From the IMG/VR virus record IMGVR_UViG_3300031902_000927: a DNA stretch of 11,045 nt; one strand, written 5' to 3'. Below the pieces are notes generated by a model. The model saw only the letters and a program-made list of their open reading frames with translations. It did not search any database and was not told the DNA's origin. Source of the stretch: a virus (lineage: Duplodnaviria > Heunggongvirae > Uroviricota > Caudoviricetes). Positions 1-7,620 of the stretch are shown in pieces. The translations under genes and the position numbers were made by a program. The stretch's first letter is position 1, and each line of letters starts with the position of its first letter.

Positions 1-1263
1 AGTAAATATTTTCTTTCTCGAATATTTTCCATATTTTACTGATGGTGTTTGATAAGAAGTAGAAGCATTACTAATTAATACAACTTTATTGAAAATTTTA
101 TTAACCGTTTGACAAATAGAATTTCCATCATTATCATATGCACAGAATACAATTACATATCTACTCAATTTATCGAATTTAACTTGTGTCGTGAATAAAT
201 TTTTATCTTTAGTTAATGTTTTTGTTATTCCATCATAAGTCATAGTTACGTTTTTTACATCATTATTATCTGTTGCTAAAACTGTTATATCATTTGCTAC
301 ATAAACTCTATCTGTAGAAAATGTTATATTCTCAATTACAGGATTGATATTATCGATAACAGTTATATTTATTGGTATCATTTGAGTAACATTACCTGCC
401 GTTATATTCAAAGAAATTGAATAATTTCCAGAAGTTTGAACTGTAGGTACTTGTGCTTGAATGTCAATATAAACGTAATTTTTTCTATATAAAGTTTGAG
501 TTAATGGAATAGTAATCATACTGCTTCCAGAACCAAATTTATTTATATACAATTCTACATCAAAATTTCCTCTATTTTGAACAACAATTCTTCCAAGATA
601 TTTTCCTTCTCCAGATTTTATTGTATTTAACGACGTAAAATTGCTTAAATCAATAGTCCAATTAAGATTTTTTTGAACATTAAAATTTTTAGTCTTTTCT
701 ATTCCATTAATTAAATATCTTATACTGTAAGCACCTGTTTGAACATCATCATCTACTCTAAGTTGAGTATTTACAATATCTTGAGAACCTGTTATTGTGA
801 AATTTGTTTTAGAAAATGTTAAATTAAATCCAGTTGGTATATAACTTGTTTCTATTTTTATAGTATTATTTGTTTCTGGAGTTGCTGTTATTATAGTCGA
901 TAAAGAAGAATTTATCATCGAAGTTAAAACATAATCTCCAGTTAATGTAAAATAAAAATCAGAACCATTGACTAAAATCATCTCTTGCTGATTAGGATTT
1001 TTAATTCTAACTGAATCATTGCCGTTCCATTTCATTACATCATATCTTTGAACTGTTAAATTAGTGAATGTGCCTTTAACATAATTTGAAGGTGTATATG
1101 TTTGTGCTAAAAATAGTATATTTCCAAAATTATTATCTCCATTAATAACATCTGTTTGTAATAAATCTGTCGTAGTGTATTGTGGAAATGATGCTGAAAC
1201 CATATGTACTGAAATCATTGCTATCAATAAACTAAATATTGATAAAATACTTTTCTTATTCAT
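1..1263 (-). CDS. Secreted/surface glycoprotein with signal peptide and probable Ig-like beta-sandwich domains (partial, 421 aa in window, continues past left edge; not in ORF track)
   Basis: Hand translation from ATG 1263-1261 is open to position 1: MNKKSILSIFSLLIAMISVHMVSA|SFPQYTTT...KYSRKKIFT. It has basic + hydrophobic + VSA signal-peptide structure, 16 N-x-S/T sequons and is rich in T/N/I/V. Ig-like segments include VIDNINPVIENIT and VLATDNNDVKNVT...FCAYDNDGNSIC. GGTGA RBS lies 6 nt upstream; TAATG overlap with the upstream gene. Confidence 0.85.
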   Translation of the reverse strand, partial: MNKKSILSIFSLLIAMISVHMVSASFPQYTTTDLLQTDVINGDNNFGNILFLAQTYTPSNYVKGTFTNLTVQRYDVMKWNGNDSVRIKNPNQQEMILVNGSDFYFTLTGDYVLTSMINSSLSTIITATPETNNTIKIETSYIPTGFNLTFSKTNFTITGSQDIVNTQLRVDDDVQTGAYSIRYLINGIEKTKNFNVQKNLNWTIDLSNFTSLNTIKSGEGKYLGRIVVQNRGNFDVELYINKFGSGSSMITIPLTQTLYRKNYVYIDIQAQVPTVQTSGNYSISLNITAGNVTQMIPINITVIDNINPVIENITFSTDRVYVANDITVLATDNNDVKNVTMTYDGITKTLTKDKNLFTTQVKFDKLSRYVIVFCAYDNDGNSICQTVNKIFNKVVLISNASTSYQTPSVKYGKYSRKKIFT

Positions 1264-1661: not shown

Positions 1662-2336
1662 TTACACCTTCTGTAACTTTTTCTTCATCAAATTGACAAT
1701 CTCAATGCTTGAGTAATTGTTCAATTTTATACTGAAAGATTTACATATCATATTTTTGTAATCTTCTGTACTTCCACATTTTTGAATGAATATACGATGA
1801 GTATGTGCTTTTTTATCATCATTTGAAAATATTATATCAGTATCATTTTGTTCTTTAATTATATTTTCTAGCAGCTCTTTTGTTTTTGTAGTACAATTCA
1901 AAATATCTCCAGGATATTTAATAACTAAAGCTCTTTTGTCGAGTTGTGAAGTTTGCATATTATCAATCACCACTCTGTATTTGTTATTATTTGAATAAAC
2001 TAACTTATCTTTTAAATTTTCAATTGTTTTTTTATTATCTTTATCAATTTTGAAATTAATTACAAATTCTTTAGTTTGTTTTGTAATAGTATCGATTAAC
2101 TTCAGTTTAATCTCTTGTCCATTATTAGATGTCTTAACACGACGTTTCATTAAGTTAAATTCATTCTGAAATGTTTCTTCCGATAAAAATGTTTTCGAAC
2201 CACTCAAATTATTTAAATAAATTTGAATAATAAACTTATTTCCTTTTGGTATTTCTATATTTTCTATCGTGCGCACAAAGTTAGAAAGAGAACAAGAGTT
2301 TATATAATTTTTGATTTTGGAACAACTTTTTAACAC
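1662..2336 (-). CDS. Putative degenerate (likely catalytically inactive) RecA/RadA/KaiC-fold protein (224 aa; start uncertain)
   Basis: RecA-family motifs occur in order: SLS...IPKG..IIQIY-LNNLSGSKT (degenerate Walker A), LIDTI (cf. RadA YIDTE), RVVIDN (Walker B), DIIFSND (cf. RecA LIFINQ), AHTHRIFIQKCG...ICK (cf. Rad51 AHASTTRLYLRKG...ICK). The GTG start has no clear RBS. Confidence 0.5.
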   Translation of the reverse strand: MLKSCSKIKNYINSCSLSNFVRTIENIEIPKGNKFIIQIYLNNLSGSKTFLSEETFQNEFNLMKRRVKTSNNGQEIKLKLIDTITKQTKEFVINFKIDKDNKKTIENLKDKLVYSNNNKYRVVIDNMQTSQLDKRALVIKYPGDILNCTTKTKELLENIIKEQNDTDIIFSNDDKKAHTHRIFIQKCGSTEDYKNMICKSFSIKLNNYSSIEIVNLMKKKLQKV

Positions 2337-2445
2337 TTTTGATTGGTTTTTATATAAAATTCTTGATTTTATTGATAATAAAGTTAAAAAAATTTAAATG
2401 TTCGATTTTTTAAAAAAACTAGCAATTTTTTACGTACGTATCAAC

Positions 2446-2484
2446 TTTATATAATGAGTGAACACAAAACGTGTGTTTATATAA
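2446..2484 (+). promoter_or_regulatory. Tandem archaeal TATA-like boxes (TTTATATAA at 2446-2454 and 2476-2484)
   Basis: Two identical TTTATATAA 30 bp apart with an AACACA/TGTGTT inverted repeat (2461-2477) between them. The second box lies ~25 nt before the GC-rich islet and hairpin region. The AT-rich background weakens the call. Confidence 0.3.
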
Positions 2485-2504
2485 TCAAATTTATAATAAT
2501 TGAA

Positions 2505-2812
2505 GAGTATCGCGCAACATCAGACGGCGGCGCGGCGCAATTCATAAAATTTAAATATTTGTTCAACAATTATAACTTCATACACATAGTAGTCGGCCTA
2601 ACGTCAATAAATTGTCCTGGGCAAGTTCCAATTCCCTTTGCCCAGGATTTTTCTAATCATCTATATAGAATTTTGTCGCATCCAACGATTTGAACTTTTG
2701 GGTTAGAATTGTCATATCGCAAGAATGACACACTATCAAATTTGTGATTTCATCTAATCCAAAAGTTCTTTTTGACAATCGCGAAAATGATAGTATTTCT
2801 AAGTTTGTCAGA
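2505..2812 (+). ncRNA. Candidate structured non-coding RNA (or ssDNA hairpin array) of unknown family
   Basis: 10-bp stem 2615-2624/2638-2647. 16-bp stem 2692-2707/2753-2768 with one G-U pair, enclosing a TGTCAT-A-TC-GCAA-GA-ATGACA hairpin (GNRA loop). Stem 2773-2778/2805-2810. Complementary loops ACTATCA 2732-2738 / TGATAGT 2788-2794. No family recognised. Confidence 0.35.
2615..2652 (+). terminator. GC-rich hairpin followed by T-tract (terminator-like)
   Basis: TCCTGGGCAA (2615-2624) / TTGCCCAGGA (2638-2647) perfect 10-bp inverted repeat followed by TTTTT. Confidence 0.35.
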
Positions 2813-2839
2813 TTCTTTAAAAGTTTATATAAATTCTTA

Positions 2840-2996
2840 AAATCTCAAAAATCTCAAAATGTAAAATTAAATCTCAAAATGATTTTCGTCACCATATAGA
2901 AATAATTAATTTTAATTTTCGTCACTATAAAATAATTAAAATCGTTTTGAGATTTTTTACATTTGATTAAAAGTTTTAAGCTAATATTTTGAGATT
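2840..2996. repeat. Iteron-like cluster A: 3x AATCTCAAAA then 2x TTTTGAGATT, arranged as an imperfect inverted repeat around a tandem ATTTTCGTCAC repeat
   Basis: ATCTCA at 2842, 2851, 2871; TGAGAT at 2948, 2990. Arms 2869-2886/2938-2955 pair at 17/18 positions. ATTTTCGTCAC at 2882-2892 and 2915-2925. Confidence 0.85.
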
Positions 2997-3091
2997 ATTT
3001 TTAAATTTATATAATTTATAATTTTTTAAAAATTTTACAAGCTTAAATATATAATATTATATATAATATATATCACTTTAATATATATCAA
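2997..3091. other. Extremely AT-rich tract, putative DNA-unwinding element of a replication origin
   Basis: 6 G/C in 95 nt by hand count; contains the 18-bp palindrome ATATATAATATTATATAT (3047-3064); bracketed by the two TGAGAT clusters. Confidence 0.6.
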
Positions 3092-3172
3092 TGAGATTAT
3101 TGAGATTCTTGAGATTCTTGATATCATACGTCATATGATGATTGGGTTATCTCAAGAATCTCAATAATCTCA
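3092..3172. repeat. Iteron-like cluster B: perfect 24-bp inverted repeat built from 9-bp TGAGATT(A/C)T units
   Basis: TGAGATTATTGAGATTCTTGAGAT (3092-3115) is the exact reverse complement of ATCTCAAGAATCTCAATAATCTCA (3149-3172). The 33-nt spacer contains an inner ATCATA/TATGAT inverted repeat (3123-3128/3134-3139). Confidence 0.9.
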
Positions 3173-3314
3173 AGGTTTTCTATCTTTGATAGTGGGAGTG
3201 GCTTCTGATATATACAATTTGATAGTTTTAGTTAATTTTTATGATTCTTTATATTAAATCAAAAACTATTTAAAGATGTGATTGATTTTTAATTTTGGTG
3301 TGGGATGATTGTTT

Positions 3315-3743
3315 ATGGTCGGAGAGTTAGAGGATAATAAATCTGATATTACTAAAGAATATAATACTACTAAAGATTTAGAAGATTTTACAAAAACGTA
3401 TTTTTCTAAAGACGATGATGTTAGTTATTCTGTTAGAGAAATATTTAAAAAATATACTTCTCAATATCCTAAAACATTTTGGATGATGTTTGGTCGTAAG
3501 AATTTGAATTTGTTCTATAAGTATTGGTTGCAGCATCAACAAGCAGATGTCGAGTTCGATTGGGTTGTTGAAAAAGAATTTTTTTATATCAATGAAGAAG
3601 ATTGGAAGAATTATATCAAAAGATTAGAATCATATTCTGGGCTTAAAATAAGCGAAGATAAACAATCATTTGTAATAGAAGGAGATAAAAGATTAAAGTT
3701 TGAAAAGATGTTTAAAGAAGCAATAAATTTGGAGGACCAATAA
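3315..3743 (+). CDS. Stand-alone paralog of the N-terminal domain of the adjacent MCM-like helicase (142 aa from ATG 3315; track start TTG 3309); candidate origin-binding/loader protein
   Basis: Gapless alignment of track residues 37-138 with helicase residues 15-116 gives 48/102 identities (KTFW..FGRKN, YWL, EFF..EE.W..Y..RL..YSG, QSF.IEGDK.L.F). TAATG coupling to the helicase. Function is inferred. Confidence 0.85.
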   Translation: MVGELEDNKSDITKEYNTTKDLEDFTKTYFSKDDDVSYSVREIFKKYTSQYPKTFWMMFGRKNLNLFYKYWLQHQQADVEFDWVVEKEFFYINEEDWKNYIKRLESYSGLKISEDKQSFVIEGDKRLKFEKMFKEAINLEDQ

Positions 3744-6262
3744 TGGAATCTCCCATCAATCAAATTGAGTTTTCTCAAATTGATGAAGTTAATCCTAAAA
3801 TAAGGGAGTTGTTCAAAAATTTTATTTCTAAAGATAGTAAAACATTTTGGTCTAAATTTGGAAGGAAAAATTTTCATTTGATGTTTCAATATTGGCTTAA
3901 ATATAAACAAAATAATCTTGATTTTGAGTGGATTGTAAAAAGAGAATTTTTTGGTATGGGTGAAGAAGAATGGGAAAAATATGTTGAAAGACTATTTAAC
4001 TATTCTGGAATAATAGTTAGTCCAGATTTACAATCATTTACAATTGAAGGAGATAAGAAATTAAGATTTGATAGTATTTACAATCAAGCGTTTGAGTTTT
4101 GTGAAAGAAGAGATTCCAAAGTCAAAGAATTAGATACTCAAAATGAGAGTGTAGAAGGCATAGAAGTAAATTCAGAAGGAAAATATGAAATTAAAAATGA
4201 AATTGTTACAAACAATGTTGTAGATTCTTTGATACGTAAAATTGCTCCATTTATTCCAGAGTTTAAGTTAATGGGTGATTTAACACAGATAAATTATTTA
4301 GAAGACAATTATGAATCTATACAAAGAGTTAAAACTAAAGTTCTAAAAAGAATTAGATTAAAGGTTCAAATTAAGTGGATAGCAGATTACATTTATGTTT
4401 GTCCGAGATGCAAGGTATCATTACTTAAAGAACCAGACGAGATGTCTGCGAAGTCTATAAGTCATTTCCCTTGCCCAATGAGTGGAACAACTCCTGTTGC
4501 AATATCAAGAGGAGCATACAAAGAAGGAAAAACTCTAAATCTTTATTGTTATGAAGTATATGTTTTTGATGCTAATAACAACAAAGATAAAAAACAATTT
4601 TTCAGTTTTGATAGTAATTTAGCAAGAGGATATTATATGATGGATGTAGTCAATTTTAAAGGAAGAATTGTTGCACCAGATGATAGAAATAAAAAAACTG
4701 TAATTTTAGGTGTTGAAAGAATAACTCCGAAATTAGGATTTGAATTTAATAGACTTAGAGGAATGGAACTTGCTAGAAAATATGGAGTTAAATATCATAA
4801 AATATTTGATATTCAAGCAGGTATTATTGATTATTATAAGACTAAGAATATTATAATTAAACCAGAAATGGGTGGATTAATACAACAATATTTATTGATG
4901 AGTGCTTTAATGAAAGTAGTTTTTAAACATCAATATTATTTAATTTCTGTAATAGGAGATACGTCCTTATCTAAAACATATCCTTCAAAATTGTTCTGTG
5001 AGATATTAGATACAGATTATGAATATGTTTCGAGAGATACTTTTTCAGAAGCAGGATTTTTAGGTGGTGTTAATGTTAATTACAATATTGGTGGAGTTAA
5101 TATGTCACAATTTCAAGAGGGAATTGTAACAACAGCAGGTTTATTAACACTAGATGAAGCAGAAAATTTTTATGATTTAAATGAACCTTATAATTCTTTA
5201 TTGAAGTCGATGCAGAATGAATCTTCTAATATACGTAAAATTGGTGGTGAAGAAGTACCATTGAATTGTACACCAATAATTTTGTGTAATTTATTTAAAC
5301 ATCATCGTAATGAGAATGAGAAAGAAAAATCTTATATTTCAGAAATCAAACAACTTTATTATCGTAGAATAGCCAAAGTTGATGAAACAGAGTTAGCACA
5401 ATATCATAAAAAGACAAGAATTGATTCAGATAGATATGTTATGCAGCAAGATTTATTTTTACCATTACAATTTATAGAGAATAAATATTTACAACAAGTT
5501 ATTGGATGGATAAGGAATAAGTATAAACACAATGATTTATGTTGGTACACAGGAGGAACATTAGCTGCTCAAAATAGAATTTTCTTTGATTGTATATGTA
5601 AAATTAATGAATATGTAAATGATGATGAAGAGTCATTTACAGATGTAGGTAGTGTTGGAGCACATAATCAAAATCAAACTAATTTACCAACGGAGGATTT
5701 CTGTTATAGCGTTCGAAAGTATTTGCTTGGTGATAAAGATATTGGATTAACTTATTTTGGAAGAGAAAAAAATAATTCAGATATAGAAGAGCAGATTAAA
5801 AAATTAAGTGCTAATGTTGAAAAATATCTTAAAGGAGAAGGTAAATTCATTGAAACACATTTTAAAGATGGAGCAAGAAGAGTTGATAGTAAAATACAAG
5901 AATTAATAGTTGCACTTTATATTGGTGTACAATTAATTAATGATATTGATGCAACAGATTTAGATTCAGCAACTAAAGATTATATGTCAAATGTTTTATT
6001 AAAAACAAAAAGAGGAGTTACTGTAGATGAATATAATTTTATTTCTCATACATATCATCCAAATAAAGAAATTATTGAAGCAAAAATATTAAATGAATTT
6101 GAATATTATACAGATTTTATTAATCAAGAAGCAGAGGATAAATTAAAAGAGAAAGGAAGAGAAGAAGGTAAGGCAGAAGTATTAGCAGAGTTTGGATTAA
6201 ATAAAATAATAAGTTTAGATGATGATAAAAAGAAAACTGGAAAAGACGGTGACGAAGAATGA
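3743..6262 (+). CDS. mcm: Divergent MCM-family AAA+ replicative helicase (839 aa)
   Basis: Zn-finger CPRC (220-223)...HFPC (241-244). Walker A GDTSLSKT (405-412; cf. GDPGxAKS), SEAGFLGGV (cf. SAAGLTAAV), Walker B LTLDE (468-472), MQNESSNIRKIGG (cf. MEQQTISIAKAG), sensor-1 N516, QNRIFFD (cf. SRFD arginine finger, R612), sensor-2 ARR (711-713). GGAGG RBS 7 nt upstream. Confidence 0.85.
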   Translation: MESPINQIEFSQIDEVNPKIRELFKNFISKDSKTFWSKFGRKNFHLMFQYWLKYKQNNLDFEWIVKREFFGMGEEEWEKYVERLFNYSGIIVSPDLQSFTIEGDKKLRFDSIYNQAFEFCERRDSKVKELDTQNESVEGIEVNSEGKYEIKNEIVTNNVVDSLIRKIAPFIPEFKLMGDLTQINYLEDNYESIQRVKTKVLKRIRLKVQIKWIADYIYVCPRCKVSLLKEPDEMSAKSISHFPCPMSGTTPVAISRGAYKEGKTLNLYCYEVYVFDANNNKDKKQFFSFDSNLARGYYMMDVVNFKGRIVAPDDRNKKTVILGVERITPKLGFEFNRLRGMELARKYGVKYHKIFDIQAGIIDYYKTKNIIIKPEMGGLIQQYLLMSALMKVVFKHQYYLISVIGDTSLSKTYPSKLFCEILDTDYEYVSRDTFSEAGFLGGVNVNYNIGGVNMSQFQEGIVTTAGLLTLDEAENFYDLNEPYNSLLKSMQNESSNIRKIGGEEVPLNCTPIILCNLFKHHRNENEKEKSYISEIKQLYYRRIAKVDETELAQYHKKTRIDSDRYVMQQDLFLPLQFIENKYLQQVIGWIRNKYKHNDLCWYTGGTLAAQNRIFFDCICKINEYVNDDEESFTDVGSVGAHNQNQTNLPTEDFCYSVRKYLLGDKDIGLTYFGREKNNSDIEEQIKKLSANVEKYLKGEGKFIETHFKDGARRVDSKIQELIVALYIGVQLINDIDATDLDSATKDYMSNVLLKTKRGVTVDEYNFISHTYHPNKEIIEAKILNEFEYYTDFINQEAEDKLKEKGREEGKAEVLAEFGLNKIISLDDDKKKTGKDGDEE

Positions 6263-7620
6263 TGTATGACATCAATAAACAATATTATGAAGAATATTTG
6301 AGCTTTAATTTATTTTTAGAATTTAGAATAGTGGATAAGACTAAATTTTTTAAAGATAAAAAAGGAGTAGATACAAAAAGAAATATTATGTTTTCTAAAT
6401 ATGCGCAAAATATAAATGATGTACAAGAAATATTAGATGTTTATAGTGGAGACCAATATATTATTTATGTTTCATCAAACACAAGACCAATTAAAGTTAA
6501 AACAGATTCTTCTGTAGTTTATAGAAGAACATTTTTCTTTGATATTGAAGGAAGTGGAGTAAAACCACCATTAACTAACGAAGAATATTATCAAAAGTTA
6601 TTGAATACTGCAATGTATGTTTGGAAAAAACTTCAAGATATAGGAATAGAACCAAATGTATTAAAAGAATCTGGAAGAGGATTGCACGTTGGAATAAAGA
6701 TAATTCCAATGAGTATAAAAAAGTACGATACATTATTTAAAATTTGGTGGAAACAATTTGTAACAGAGATTGAAGAGAAAAGACCTTATACAGATATTAA
6801 ATTTAGTGATAATATGTCAAATCCATCAAGAATTGAATCTGCTCCTGGAAGTCGTCATAATAAATATGAAGAAAAACCTGAAAGGAAAGTTTTAGTTTTA
6901 AAAGTACACGAAAATAATATGTTACCAATATTGAGTAAAATTGCTGTTTATCAGAAAAGAGAATCTAAATTATCTAACAAAACACTTAAATCAAAATATG
7001 TTTATGATGACGATAATATTTATATGGAATGTCCAGAATGGTTATTATTAGAAAATTATAGAAATTTACCAGAAGGAGAAATTCATAATAAAATTATTGC
7101 AATGTTAAAATGTATTGTTAGAGATAATGAGTTGGATGCCCTAAAAATGCAAACTAAGTTACAAGAAATAGGATATAACGAAGTTATTGATGTACCACAT
7201 AAAGATATGAAATATAGTCCTTTTGTTTTATTTAATTGGTGTATGAGAAACTATATTTTTTGTTGTGATAATGATGTTGTTGTAGATTTTCCAAATGCAG
7301 AAAATTATTTTAATAGTTCTTTGAAAAATATTATATCAATTACTAGATTACAATACAATACAATTTTGAATATAGAAGATAGACCAATAAATAGTTATCG
7401 TGAAATGAAGGAATTTATTAAAGAGTTTAATACAAAAACTGCGGCTTGGTATGGTGATAGATTAGCAATTTATGAGCAAGAATTAAAATTAAGACTTGAG
7501 AAGAATTGTAATAAAAAATTATATGATTATATTATAAACAAATGTCAATTATGGGATTTCATAAAAAGTGAAATAATATTGAAACAATACATCGAGGATA
7601 ATGGAATTAGGAGATTGTGA
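6259..7620 (+). CDS. Archaeo-eukaryotic primase (AEP) superfamily primase/primase-polymerase with Cys-containing C-terminal region (453 aa)
   Basis: Motif I FFFDIE (D95-x-E97), motif II SGRGLH (138-143), motif III D184...R191..PGS.H.K. C-terminal CPEW...EGEIHN resembles a PriCT/PriL-type helical domain. ATGA overlap with mcm; GGTGA RBS 6 nt upstream. Confidence 0.85.
   Translation: MMYDINKQYYEEYLSFNLFLEFRIVDKTKFFKDKKGVDTKRNIMFSKYAQNINDVQEILDVYSGDQYIIYVSSNTRPIKVKTDSSVVYRRTFFFDIEGSGVKPPLTNEEYYQKLLNTAMYVWKKLQDIGIEPNVLKESGRGLHVGIKIIPMSIKKYDTLFKIWWKQFVTEIEEKRPYTDIKFSDNMSNPSRIESAPGSRHNKYEEKPERKVLVLKVHENNMLPILSKIAVYQKRESKLSNKTLKSKYVYDDDNIYMECPEWLLLENYRNLPEGEIHNKIIAMLKCIVRDNELDALKMQTKLQEIGYNEVIDVPHKDMKYSPFVLFNWCMRNYIFCCDNDVVVDFPNAENYFNSSLKNIISITRLQYNTILNIEDRPINSYREMKEFIKEFNTKTAAWYGDRLAIYEQELKLRLEKNCNKKLYDYIINKCQLWDFIKSEIILKQYIEDNGIRRL

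What the first reader, a model, noticed from the sequence alone, without database searches (positions are those of the whole stretch)
2840..3172. Bipartite palindromic iteron origin built on a TGAGAT motif
Seen: 11 TGAGAT/ATCTCA copies in ~330 bp; a rough estimate at 25% GC is about 0.2 expected. Cluster A has 3 ATCTCA then 2 TGAGAT, cluster B has 3 TGAGAT then 3 ATCTCA, so the two clusters have opposite symmetry. A 6%-GC tract lies between them, genes diverge on either side, and MCM and primase genes follow directly. Established: repeats flanking an AT-rich unwinding element are the general layout of archaeal and plasmid origins. The motif does not resemble the ORB box bound by Orc1/Cdc6, and no Cdc6 gene is in the window. 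Inference: an origin recognised by an element-encoded, non-Orc1 initiator.
Basis: partly seen in the sequence, partly recalled or inferred. Interest (0 to 1): 0.75.

Follow-up and report, generated by a model that had tools for sequence, protein, structure and literature searches.

The report
Iteron origin beside viral MCM helicase
A dense, symmetric cluster of a six-base word next to the most easily melted DNA, just upstream of an MCM-type helicase gene, is most likely where this uncultured 105-kb virus-like element starts copying its DNA; the design is known from other mobile elements and is seen here in a little-studied group.

Summary
Eleven of the 14 TGAGAT/ATCTCA copies in the window lie in 2842-3172. 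In about 44 kb of the same genome there are only 10 more copies, all scattered. No hexamer reached 11 copies per 333 nt in 1,300 shuffles (maximum 8).

Cluster B (3092-3172) has 3+3 iterons at a 9-bp period in an imperfect palindrome. Cluster A (2842-2995) has 3+2 copies with opposite symmetry. The tract between them is the most AT-rich DNA in 32 kb.

Five relatives (helicases 31-44% identical) have the same 9-bp-phased palindrome next to an AT tract, each built from a different word: GGTAWT, TGATAA, GTTAAT, TAGTRM or GTTACG. So an element-encoded protein probably reads the sites.

The 839-aa protein downstream has an MCM fold (Z 17-18) plus an extra N-terminal domain of about 125 residues. 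That domain evolves faster than the rest of the protein.

Best reading, about 0.6: a replication origin of the SaPI type, served by a self-loading helicase. No experiment supports it yet, and GC skew is uninformative.

The main rival is an operator array. This scan has noted the same kind of element before on other DNA. The finding is a new variant of a known kind and of moderate interest.

The parts
2842..2876 (-). Cluster A, left half: three ATCTCA iterons at 2842, 2851 and 2871 (spacing 9 and 20 bp)
2882..2925 (+). Two copies of the box ATTTTCGTCAC (2882 and 2915, a 33-bp direct repeat) between the opposed halves of cluster A. The 9-mer ATTTTCGTC recurs only in the equivalent cluster of L022, the other relative that encodes a free N-domain paralog.
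2948..2995 (+). Cluster A, right half: two TGAGAT iterons at 2948 and 2990
2996..3091 (.). AT-rich tract (5-10% GC in 80-nt windows), the most AT-rich DNA in a 32-kb composite. Candidate unwinding element.
3092..3172 (.). Cluster B: three TGAGATTnT iterons at a 9-bp period (3092, 3101, 3110), a 33-nt spacer with an inner palindrome, then three inverted ATCTCA copies (3149, 3158, 3167). As single-stranded DNA it folds at -25.8 kcal/mol, z -9.4.
3256..3277 (+). Promoter-like block with a TATTTAAAG box, conserved with L022 610-631. It lies about 85 nt to the right of cluster B and about 40 nt upstream of the ATG at 3315.
   Evidence: TATA reading is inference
3315..3743 (+). 142-aa protein, a free paralog (48% identity) of the helicase's N-terminal extension
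3743..6262 (+). 839-aa MCM-fold helicase. Residues 1-125 (3743-4117) form an extra N-terminal domain joined by a low-confidence linker. Residues 130-762 align with MCM N-tier and AAA+ tiers.
6259..7620 (+). 453-aa candidate archaeo-eukaryotic-type primase. Invariant D95, E97 and S138-G141 across six relatives; no family hit above threshold.
1662..2336 (-). 224-aa protein of unknown family. It is the first leftward gene and keeps this position beside the repeat region in four of five relatives whose left flank is held. It cannot be excluded as an alternative reader of the repeats.

Best explanation
The region 2842-3172 is the replication origin, or one origin, of a circular element of about 105 kb that looks like a virus and whose host is uncultured. 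The TGAGAT words are iterons read by a protein the element itself encodes. The most likely reader is the extra N-terminal domain (about 125 residues) of the MCM-fold helicase encoded about 570 nt downstream.

Inferred mechanism: N-domains of neighbouring subunits of one helicase ring occupy successive iterons spaced 9 bp apart. The 3+3 palindrome of cluster B then seats two rings in mirror orientation next to the AT-richest tract, which melts. The helicase therefore loads itself without Orc1/Cdc6. Cluster A has a looser spacing of about 10-11 and 20-21 bp and probably acts as an auxiliary binding field.

Shown: the repeat array, its conserved architecture with changed words in relatives, the AT tract, the MCM fold and the extra domain. 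Inferred: which protein binds, that DNA melts here, and that replication starts here.
For: (1) Clustering is about 145-fold above the rest of 44 kb and beyond any shuffle.
(2) Five relatives (L005, L014, L015, L016, L022; helicases 31-44% identical) keep a palindrome of 2-4 + 2-4 hexamers at a 9-bp period (9-10 bp in L015) beside an AT tract upstream of the helicase. Each has its own word. The word is enriched 8- to 33-fold in the intergenic gap, and the palindromes fold with z -3.2 to -9.4.
(3) The tract between the clusters is the AT-richest DNA in 32 kb.
(4) The neighbouring gene encodes an MCM-fold helicase. All of the top 500 Foldseek hits are MCM (E 6e-15). VIA-align gives Z 17-18 over 430-477 residues, covering model residues 130-762, so residues 1-129 are an add-on.
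(5) Between the window and L022 the add-on is 37% identical, the rest of the helicase 46% and the free paralog 56%. The add-on therefore diverges fastest, in step with the changed word.
(6) The iterons end about 85 nt or more from the conserved promoter-like block and about 480 nt from the leftward gene's start.
(7) Published precedent. SaPI origins span about 300 bp, with penta- or hexanucleotide iterons placed in opposite orientation around an AT-rich region. Their Rep helicases, one of them MCM-like, load themselves. In PriRep5 the 7-nt iterons are separated by 2 nt, a 9-bp period, and are bound by winged-helix domains of adjacent subunits (bioRxiv 10.64898/2026.10.17.759575). N-terminal DNA-binding extensions of Thermococcales viral MCMs have been proposed to recognise origins in the absence of Orc1 and ORB (PMC12934983).
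Against: There is no functional evidence of any kind. The GC-skew minimum coincides with the site, but skew follows the coding strand. In L017 all genes point the same way and there is no inversion at its repeat region.

The N-domain has only weak structural matches (best Z 4.8, Foldseek E at least 0.27), so DNA binding is not established, although winged-helix proteins dominate the hit lists. Its best-conserved helix (YWLQHK-like) is fairly similar between relatives whose words differ.

Module order and the side on which the AT tract lies are not fixed; L005 and L022 differ from the window. About 61 kb of the genome was not available to me, so a second cluster or a classical origin elsewhere cannot be excluded. 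An earlier scan note on another virus favoured gene control for a similar array.
Confidence: 0.6

Rival explanations
1. The repeats form an operator or enhancer array for a transcription regulator that controls the two divergent operons, for example an early/late switch. The reader could be the free 142-aa paralog, the 224-aa protein or the TrmB-like protein. On this reading the region has no role in initiation. It could also serve both control and initiation.
For: The array lies in the only divergent intergenic gap seen in 44 kb. Palindromic sites suit dimeric regulators, and the N-domain's weak structural matches are mostly MarR-type repressors.
Against: There are eleven sites spread over 330 bp. 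They end about 85 nt upstream of the conserved promoter-like block and about 480 nt from the leftward gene start, rather than overlapping a promoter. In relatives the palindrome ends about 100-320 nt before the helicase ATG. The free paralog is absent from four of the five relatives that keep the array. The constant association with the AT-richest tract has no obvious purpose for an operator.
Confidence: 0.22
2. The array is a centromere-like partition site (parC/parS type) of a plasmid-like element, bound by a small adaptor protein.
For: Arrays of short phased repeats in direct and inverted orientation are typical of plasmid centromeres (established knowledge).
Against: No ParA, ParM or ParB family appears in the precomputed Pfam tables for about 44 kb around the site. 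The leftward 224-aa family has no conserved P-loop. The array stays next to the helicase and primase genes in all relatives.
Confidence: 0.07
3. The array is a recombination or packaging site (attP, cos or pac).
For: A tyrosine integrase gene lies about 14 kb to the left (L027 18028-18903).
Against: The integrase is far from the array and no terminase is nearby. attP arm sites are not 9-bp-phased palindromes beside AT tracts, and the array travels with the helicase gene.
Confidence: 0.03

Closest known systems
SaPI (Staphylococcus aureus pathogenicity island) pri-rep-ori replicons with self-loading Rep helicases, including the MCM-like Rep2/Repbov1
   Same: An origin of about 300 bp made of penta- to heptanucleotide iterons in opposed orientation around an AT-rich region, next to the helicase and primase genes. 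The iteron word is specific to each element. In PriRep5 the iterons have a 9-bp period and are read by winged-helix domains of adjacent ring subunits. No separate loader is needed.
   Different: In SaPIs the DNA-binding domain is C-terminal and the origin lies downstream of rep. Here the extra domain is N-terminal and the array lies upstream, in a divergent gap. The host is unknown and not a staphylococcus, and the element is about 105 kb with its own PolB. Two lineages add a free copy of the domain and a conserved extra box. Binding is untested here.
Thermococcales viral and integrated-element MCMs with N-terminal helix-turn-helix extensions (PMC12934983)
   Same: A viral MCM carries an extra N-terminal domain that is putatively DNA-binding. 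No Orc1/Cdc6 and no ORB are present. The authors propose that the extension recognises the origin.
   Different: Those extensions are about 200 aa and the passages I read name no cognate origin sequence. The present helicase is not detectable as MCM by sequence, comes from cold wetland metagenomes at about 26% GC, and has an explicit candidate site set that changes among relatives.
Polyomavirus and papillomavirus core origins (large T antigen or E1 binding to palindromic pentamer or hexamer arrays beside an AT tract)
   Same: From my own knowledge, not tested here: inverted arrays of short words nucleate two oppositely oriented hexameric helicases through a dedicated origin-binding domain, next to an AT-rich tract, within a non-coding control region between divergent transcription units.
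   Different: Those helicases belong to superfamily 3, not the MCM group. They infect eukaryotic hosts and have fewer, more tightly packed sites.
Archaeal Orc1/Cdc6-dependent oriC (inverted ORB elements flanking an unwinding element)
   Same: Inverted repeats lie around an AT-rich unwinding element next to replication genes.
   Different: No orc1/cdc6 gene is seen in about 44 kb. The words are hexamers at a 9-bp phase and differ in every relative, rather than matching a conserved ORB consensus.

Membership tests
Iteron origin served by a self-loading initiator-helicase (SaPI type) | Clustered short iterons in opposed orientation around an AT-rich region | tested here: met
Iteron origin served by a self-loading initiator-helicase (SaPI type) | Array lies beside the gene of a hexameric helicase that carries an extra domain outside the motor | tested here: met
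   MCM fold covers residues 130-762; residues 1-129 are an add-on. Synteny holds in five relatives.
Iteron origin served by a self-loading initiator-helicase (SaPI type) | Iteron word is element-specific and changes together with the helicase's extra domain | tested here: met
   Six elements carry six words. The add-on diverges faster than the motor: 37% against 46% identity. This is a correlation only; no two elements share a word, so the test has no positive control.
Iteron origin served by a self-loading initiator-helicase (SaPI type) | The extra domain is a sequence-specific DNA binder (winged helix) | tested here: inconclusive
   The model has pLDDT 79.7 and an H-S-H-H-S-S order. The best matches are weak: MarR family Z 4.7, Cdc6/ORC winged-helix domains at Foldseek E 0.3-0.9, Pi initiator Z 3.6.
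Iteron origin served by a self-loading initiator-helicase (SaPI type) | The helicase binds the iterons, melts the AT tract and starts replication without a loader | not testable with these tools
   Needs biochemistry or protein-DNA co-folding.
Archaeal Orc1/Cdc6-dependent origin | An orc1/cdc6 gene adjacent to the origin or elsewhere in the element | tested here: not met
   No such Pfam hit in the window's ORFs or in the gene tables of about 44 kb. About 61 kb of the genome was not seen.
Archaeal Orc1/Cdc6-dependent origin | ORB or mini-ORB consensus repeats | not tested
   I had the ORB consensus from memory only. The hexamer differs in every relative, which argues against a conserved host-type box.
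MCM helicase | N-tier (OB fold with zinc site) plus AAA+ tier fold | tested here: met
   Foldseek E 6e-15, with all of the top 500 hits MCM. Z 17-18 over 430-477 aligned residues, including archaeal SsoMCM 8eag_F at Z 17.0. C220, C223 and C244 are nearly invariant.
MCM helicase | Conserved ATPase residues (Walker A Lys, Walker B Asp-Glu, sensor-1 Asn, Arg finger) | tested here: met
   K411, D471, E472 and N516 are invariant, and R591 and R612 nearly invariant, in 34 relatives. Assigning these residues to the named motifs is my reading.
MCM helicase | Match to curated MCM sequence models | tested here: not met
   No Pfam, NCBIfam, PHROG or PDB sequence hit. Membership holds at fold level only.
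Archaeo-eukaryotic primase (453-aa protein) | Catalytic motifs I-III and a match to an AEP model | tested here: inconclusive
   D95, E97 and SGRG 138-141 are invariant. LigD_Prim-Pol gives E 0.096, below threshold, and the profile finds nothing in the PDB.
Plasmid centromere (parC/parS) | Adjacent partition ATPase and adaptor genes | tested here: not met
   No ParA, ParM or ParB family in the gene tables. The 224-aa neighbour has no conserved P-loop.

The most novel reading that the evidence does not exclude
An MCM-fold replicative helicase loads itself at its own origin with no Orc1/Cdc6. Its N-terminal add-on domains read 9-bp-phased iterons, so that the 3+3 palindrome seats a head-to-head pair of rings beside the melting tract. 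In two lineages a free copy of that domain reads a separate, conserved box (ATTTTCGTC) inside the origin and tunes firing. This would be a two-reader origin built from one duplicated domain.
Probability: 0.2. Interest if true: 0.75.

Novelty: new variant of a known kind. Interest (0 to 1): 0.5.

Why it matters
How MCM rings reach DNA without ORC or Cdc6 is an open question for archaeal viruses and plasmids. A 2026 preprint proposes that N-terminal extensions of viral MCMs recognise origins, and the passages I read name no cognate sites. This family offers an explicit site set with a clear geometry (9-bp phase, 3+3 palindrome, adjacent melting tract). It also offers six natural specificity variants for swap experiments and a natural DBD-only paralog. 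The helicase N-domain and short DNA oligonucleotides would be enough for a first test. In practice, the architecture (a phased palindrome of an element-specific word beside the AT minimum, next to the helicase gene) is a usable rule for annotating origins in uncultured viral genomes where skew is uninformative.

Tried and rejected
- GC/AT skew. The cumulative minimum falls at the site in the window, L001, L014, L016 and L019. It simply tracks the switch of coding strand, and L017 (co-directional genes) shows no inversion. I rejected it as evidence.
- Whole genome. None is held, and records behind L001 and L014 could not be searched. I walked out to about 44 kb using gene look-ups.
- Viral contig collection. 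There was no relative of the helicase and no copy of the palindrome. The phage collection had no tblastn match. The metagenome scan only re-found L005.
- Rfam on 2200-3400. Only sub-threshold miRNA-hairpin hits on the palindrome, which I take as artefacts of its symmetry.
- N-domain fold search. No convincing match.
- Primase and 224-aa families. Profiles against PDB and Pfam gave nothing above threshold.
- Structural genes of the left arm. No Pfam or PHROG identification, so virus versus plasmid stays open.
- Phylogenetic footprinting. All copies of this element (L001-L004) and all copies of L022 (L022-L024) are at least 99.9% identical, so it gave nothing.
- Intergenic blastn between relatives. 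Mostly AT-rich noise.

Full report
**1. Observation**

TGAGAT and its complement occur 14 times in the window, and 11 of these lie in 2842-3172.
- ATCTCA at 2842, 2851 and 2871
- TGAGAT at 2948 and 2990
- an AT tract
- TGAGAT at 3092, 3101 and 3110
- ATCTCA at 3149, 3158 and 3167

Shuffles predict about 0.3 copies in 331 nt. As a test corrected for motif choice, I took the largest count of any hexamer in any 333-nt span. It never exceeded 8 in 300 shuffles of the window or in 1,000 shuffles of the intergenic gap alone, against 11 observed.

The window is 100% identical to parts of several metagenome contigs. By walking along them I assembled 32.2 kb around the site and a further 12.2 kb. There are 21 copies in these 44 kb, and the 10 outside the cluster are scattered. 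This is the densest hexamer cluster in the 32 kb. The AT-poorest 80-nt windows of the whole 32 kb (5-10% GC) all fall at 2952-3100, between the two clusters.

**2. Anatomy**

- Cluster B (3092-3172) is an imperfect palindrome. Three TGAGATTnT units sit at a 9-bp period, followed by a 33-nt spacer with its own small inverted repeat, then three inverted units at the same period. As single-stranded DNA it folds at -25.8 kcal/mol, z -9.4.
- Cluster A (2842-2995) has the opposite symmetry and looser spacing (9, 20 and 42 bp). It encloses two copies of ATTTTCGTCAC, 33 bp apart.
- The whole gap (2337-3314) separates a leftward block from a rightward block.
- The leftward block starts with a 224-aa protein of unknown family.
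- The rightward block encodes, in order, a 142-aa protein, an 839-aa protein and a 453-aa protein. Further on come a Cas4-like nuclease fused to an SF2 helicase, an exonuclease, a TrmB-like protein, an HNH endonuclease and a 934-aa family B polymerase.

**3. The neighbouring proteins**

The 839-aa protein has no hit in Pfam, NCBIfam, PHROGs or PDB sequences. A search of 1.84 billion representative proteins found 43 relatives.

An AlphaFold model built on 34 of them (pLDDT 81.6, pTM 0.71) is unambiguously MCM:
- All of the top 500 Foldseek hits are MCM chains, the best at E 6e-15.
- VIA-align gives Z 17-18 over 430-477 residues, including archaeal SsoMCM at Z 17.0.
- The aligned model range is 130-762.

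K411, D471, E472 and N516 are invariant in the family, and three zinc-site cysteines are nearly so.

Residues 1-125 are therefore an add-on. They join the body through a low-confidence linker (residues 122-134). The 142-aa protein is a free paralog of this add-on, 48% identical at E 1e-36.

A model of the domain (pLDDT 79.7) shows the order helix, strand, short helix, helix, strand, strand. This is compatible with a winged helix. Structural matches are weak, with Z at most 4.8 and Foldseek E at least 0.27. The lists are nevertheless dominated by MarR-type, Cdc6/ORC winged-helix and iteron-initiator proteins. I treat DNA binding by this domain as plausible but unproven.

The 453-aa protein keeps D95, E97 and SGRG 138-141 in six relatives. 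It reaches only E 0.096 against LigD_Prim-Pol, so 'primase' is a motif-level call.

**4. Comparative evidence (the main new result)**

Five related elements were fetched with their upstream DNA. Their helicases are 31-44% identical to the window's: L005, L014, L015, L016 and L022. Each has a word that is strongly enriched in the gap upstream of the helicase:

| Locus | Word |
|---|---|
| L005 | GGTAWT |
| L014 | TGATAA(T) |
| L015 | GTTAAT |
| L016 | TAGTRM |
| L022 | GTTACG (11 of 12 copies lie in nt 173-482) |

In every one the word forms a module like cluster B. It has 2-4 copies at a 9-bp period (9-10 bp in L015), a short spacer of 4-15 nt, and 2-4 inverted copies. The folding z-scores run from -3.2 to -9.4. 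An extremely AT-rich tract lies beside the module.

L014, L015, L016 and L022 also have a module like cluster A, with opposed copies spaced about 10-11 and 20-21 bp apart. Module order and the side of the AT tract vary; L005 and L022 differ from the window.

Two more distant relatives also carry element-specific repeats upstream of the helicase, in other designs. L017 has two units of about 60 bp, each an inverted GCCTGTAA pair, followed by an AT tract with AAATTTAAC repeats. L019 is the other.

A conserved architecture built from a changing word is what a DNA site looks like when it co-evolves with a sequence-specific protein encoded by the same element. The only protein with a suitable extra domain present in all five close relatives is the helicase. 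The free paralog occurs only in the window element and in L022. Between those two elements the identities are as follows:

| Compared part | Identity |
|---|---|
| Helicase add-on | 37% |
| Rest of the helicase | 46% |
| Free paralog | 56% |

So the add-on is the fastest-changing part.

**5. A second, conserved box**

The 9-mer ATTTTCGTC occurs twice in cluster A (2882 and 2915) and once in the equivalent cluster of L022 (415), on the same strand. It occurs nowhere else in the 44 kb and nowhere in the loci of the relatives that lack the free paralog. The free paralog is also the better-conserved copy of the domain. Together these suggest that the helicase domain reads the variable iterons and the free paralog reads the conserved box. 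This rests on two lineages only and is a hypothesis.

**6. Origin or operator?**

A 22-nt block with a TATTTAAAG box is conserved between the window (3256-3277) and L022 (610-631), about 40 nt before the start codon of the free paralog. It is the likely promoter. Cluster B ends 85 nt upstream of it. The leftward gene starts about 480 nt from cluster A, with a TATA-like box right next to its start codon. In relatives the palindrome ends about 100-320 nt before the helicase ATG.

The sites therefore do not overlap the promoters. They number eleven, and they always accompany the AT minimum. These points favour an origin over a simple operator. A control role, or a dual role, is not excluded.

GC skew cannot help. 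It follows the coding strand, and L017, whose genes all point one way, shows no inversion at its repeats.

**7. Comparison with known systems**

The closest characterised system is the SaPI pri-rep-ori replicon (bioRxiv 10.64898/2026.10.17.759575):
- Its origin spans about 300 bp, with penta- or hexanucleotide iterons placed in opposite orientation around an AT-rich region.
- It is served by self-loading Rep helicases, one class of which is MCM-like.
- In the PriRep5 structure the 7-nt iterons are separated by 2 nt, which is the same 9-bp period as here.
- Those iterons are bound by the winged-helix domains of adjacent ring subunits, and the AT-rich bits between inverted iterons are proposed melting points.

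Here the extra domain is N-terminal rather than C-terminal, the array lies upstream in a divergent gap, and the element is a circle of about 105 kb with its own PolB.

For archaeal-type MCMs, a 2026 preprint proposes that N-terminal helix-turn-helix extensions of Thermococcales viral MCMs recognise origins where Orc1/Cdc6 and ORB are absent (PMC12934983).

Earlier notes of this scan describe the same kind of element on other DNA several times. They also call this genome a 105.6-kb circular element, possibly of DPANN archaea. I did not verify the host.

**8. Verdict**

It is strengthened by the architecture-with-changing-word pattern in five relatives and by the MCM fold with an add-on domain. 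It still rests on comparison and analogy. I rate it a new variant of a known kind, of moderate interest.

Noticed in passing
window 2882-2892 and 2915-2925; L022 415-423: The box ATTTTCGTC(AC) occurs only inside the candidate origins of the two lineages that encode a free copy of the helicase N-domain. It is absent from 44 kb of flanks and from six other relatives. It may be the free paralog's own site.
   Followed up: partly
window 2454-2812: A GC-enriched stretch (up to 38% GC against about 26%) lies inside the gap. It holds a 79-aa ORF that gene callers did not call and a 16-bp stem (2692-2707 / 2753-2768). It has no Rfam match and I found no counterpart in relatives. It could be a small gene or an RNA beside the origin.
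   Followed up: partly
window 2960-2980; L014 5501-5532; L016 5271-5345: An AT-rich box, TGATTAAAAnTTTTA, is shared between relatives whose iterons differ. L016 has three copies at a 20-bp period, and L014 and L016 match at 94% over 32 nt. It may be a site for a conserved or host factor, or it may be AT-rich noise.
   Followed up: no
L017 4210-4560: A more distant relative has a different origin-like design: two direct units of about 60 bp, each an inverted pair of GCCTGTAA, followed by an AT tract with about seven AAATTTAAC repeats. A separate 91-aa gene sits just before a helicase that matches the family profile only from about residue 67.
   Followed up: partly
L027 18028-18903 (about 14 kb left of the repeats): A tyrosine integrase (PF00589) of 291 aa, so the element may integrate.
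   Followed up: no
L001 19359-22520 and beyond (window end +2 to +5 kb): An HNH endonuclease (phrog_99, E 7e-15) lies directly before a 934-aa family B DNA polymerase, so the replication block is not polymerase-less. Intein-like domains and a SegE-type GIY-YIG nuclease are also present in the genome.
   Followed up: partly
window 941-1037 (L001 7199-7295, - strand): ARAGORN calls a 97-nt 'tRNA-Phe' with anticodon AAA inside the 646-aa ORF. This is probably a false positive.
   Followed up: no
window 1662-2336 and syntenic genes in L005, L014, L015, L016: The first leftward gene is a conserved family of 194-236 aa with no detectable homology.
   Followed up: partly
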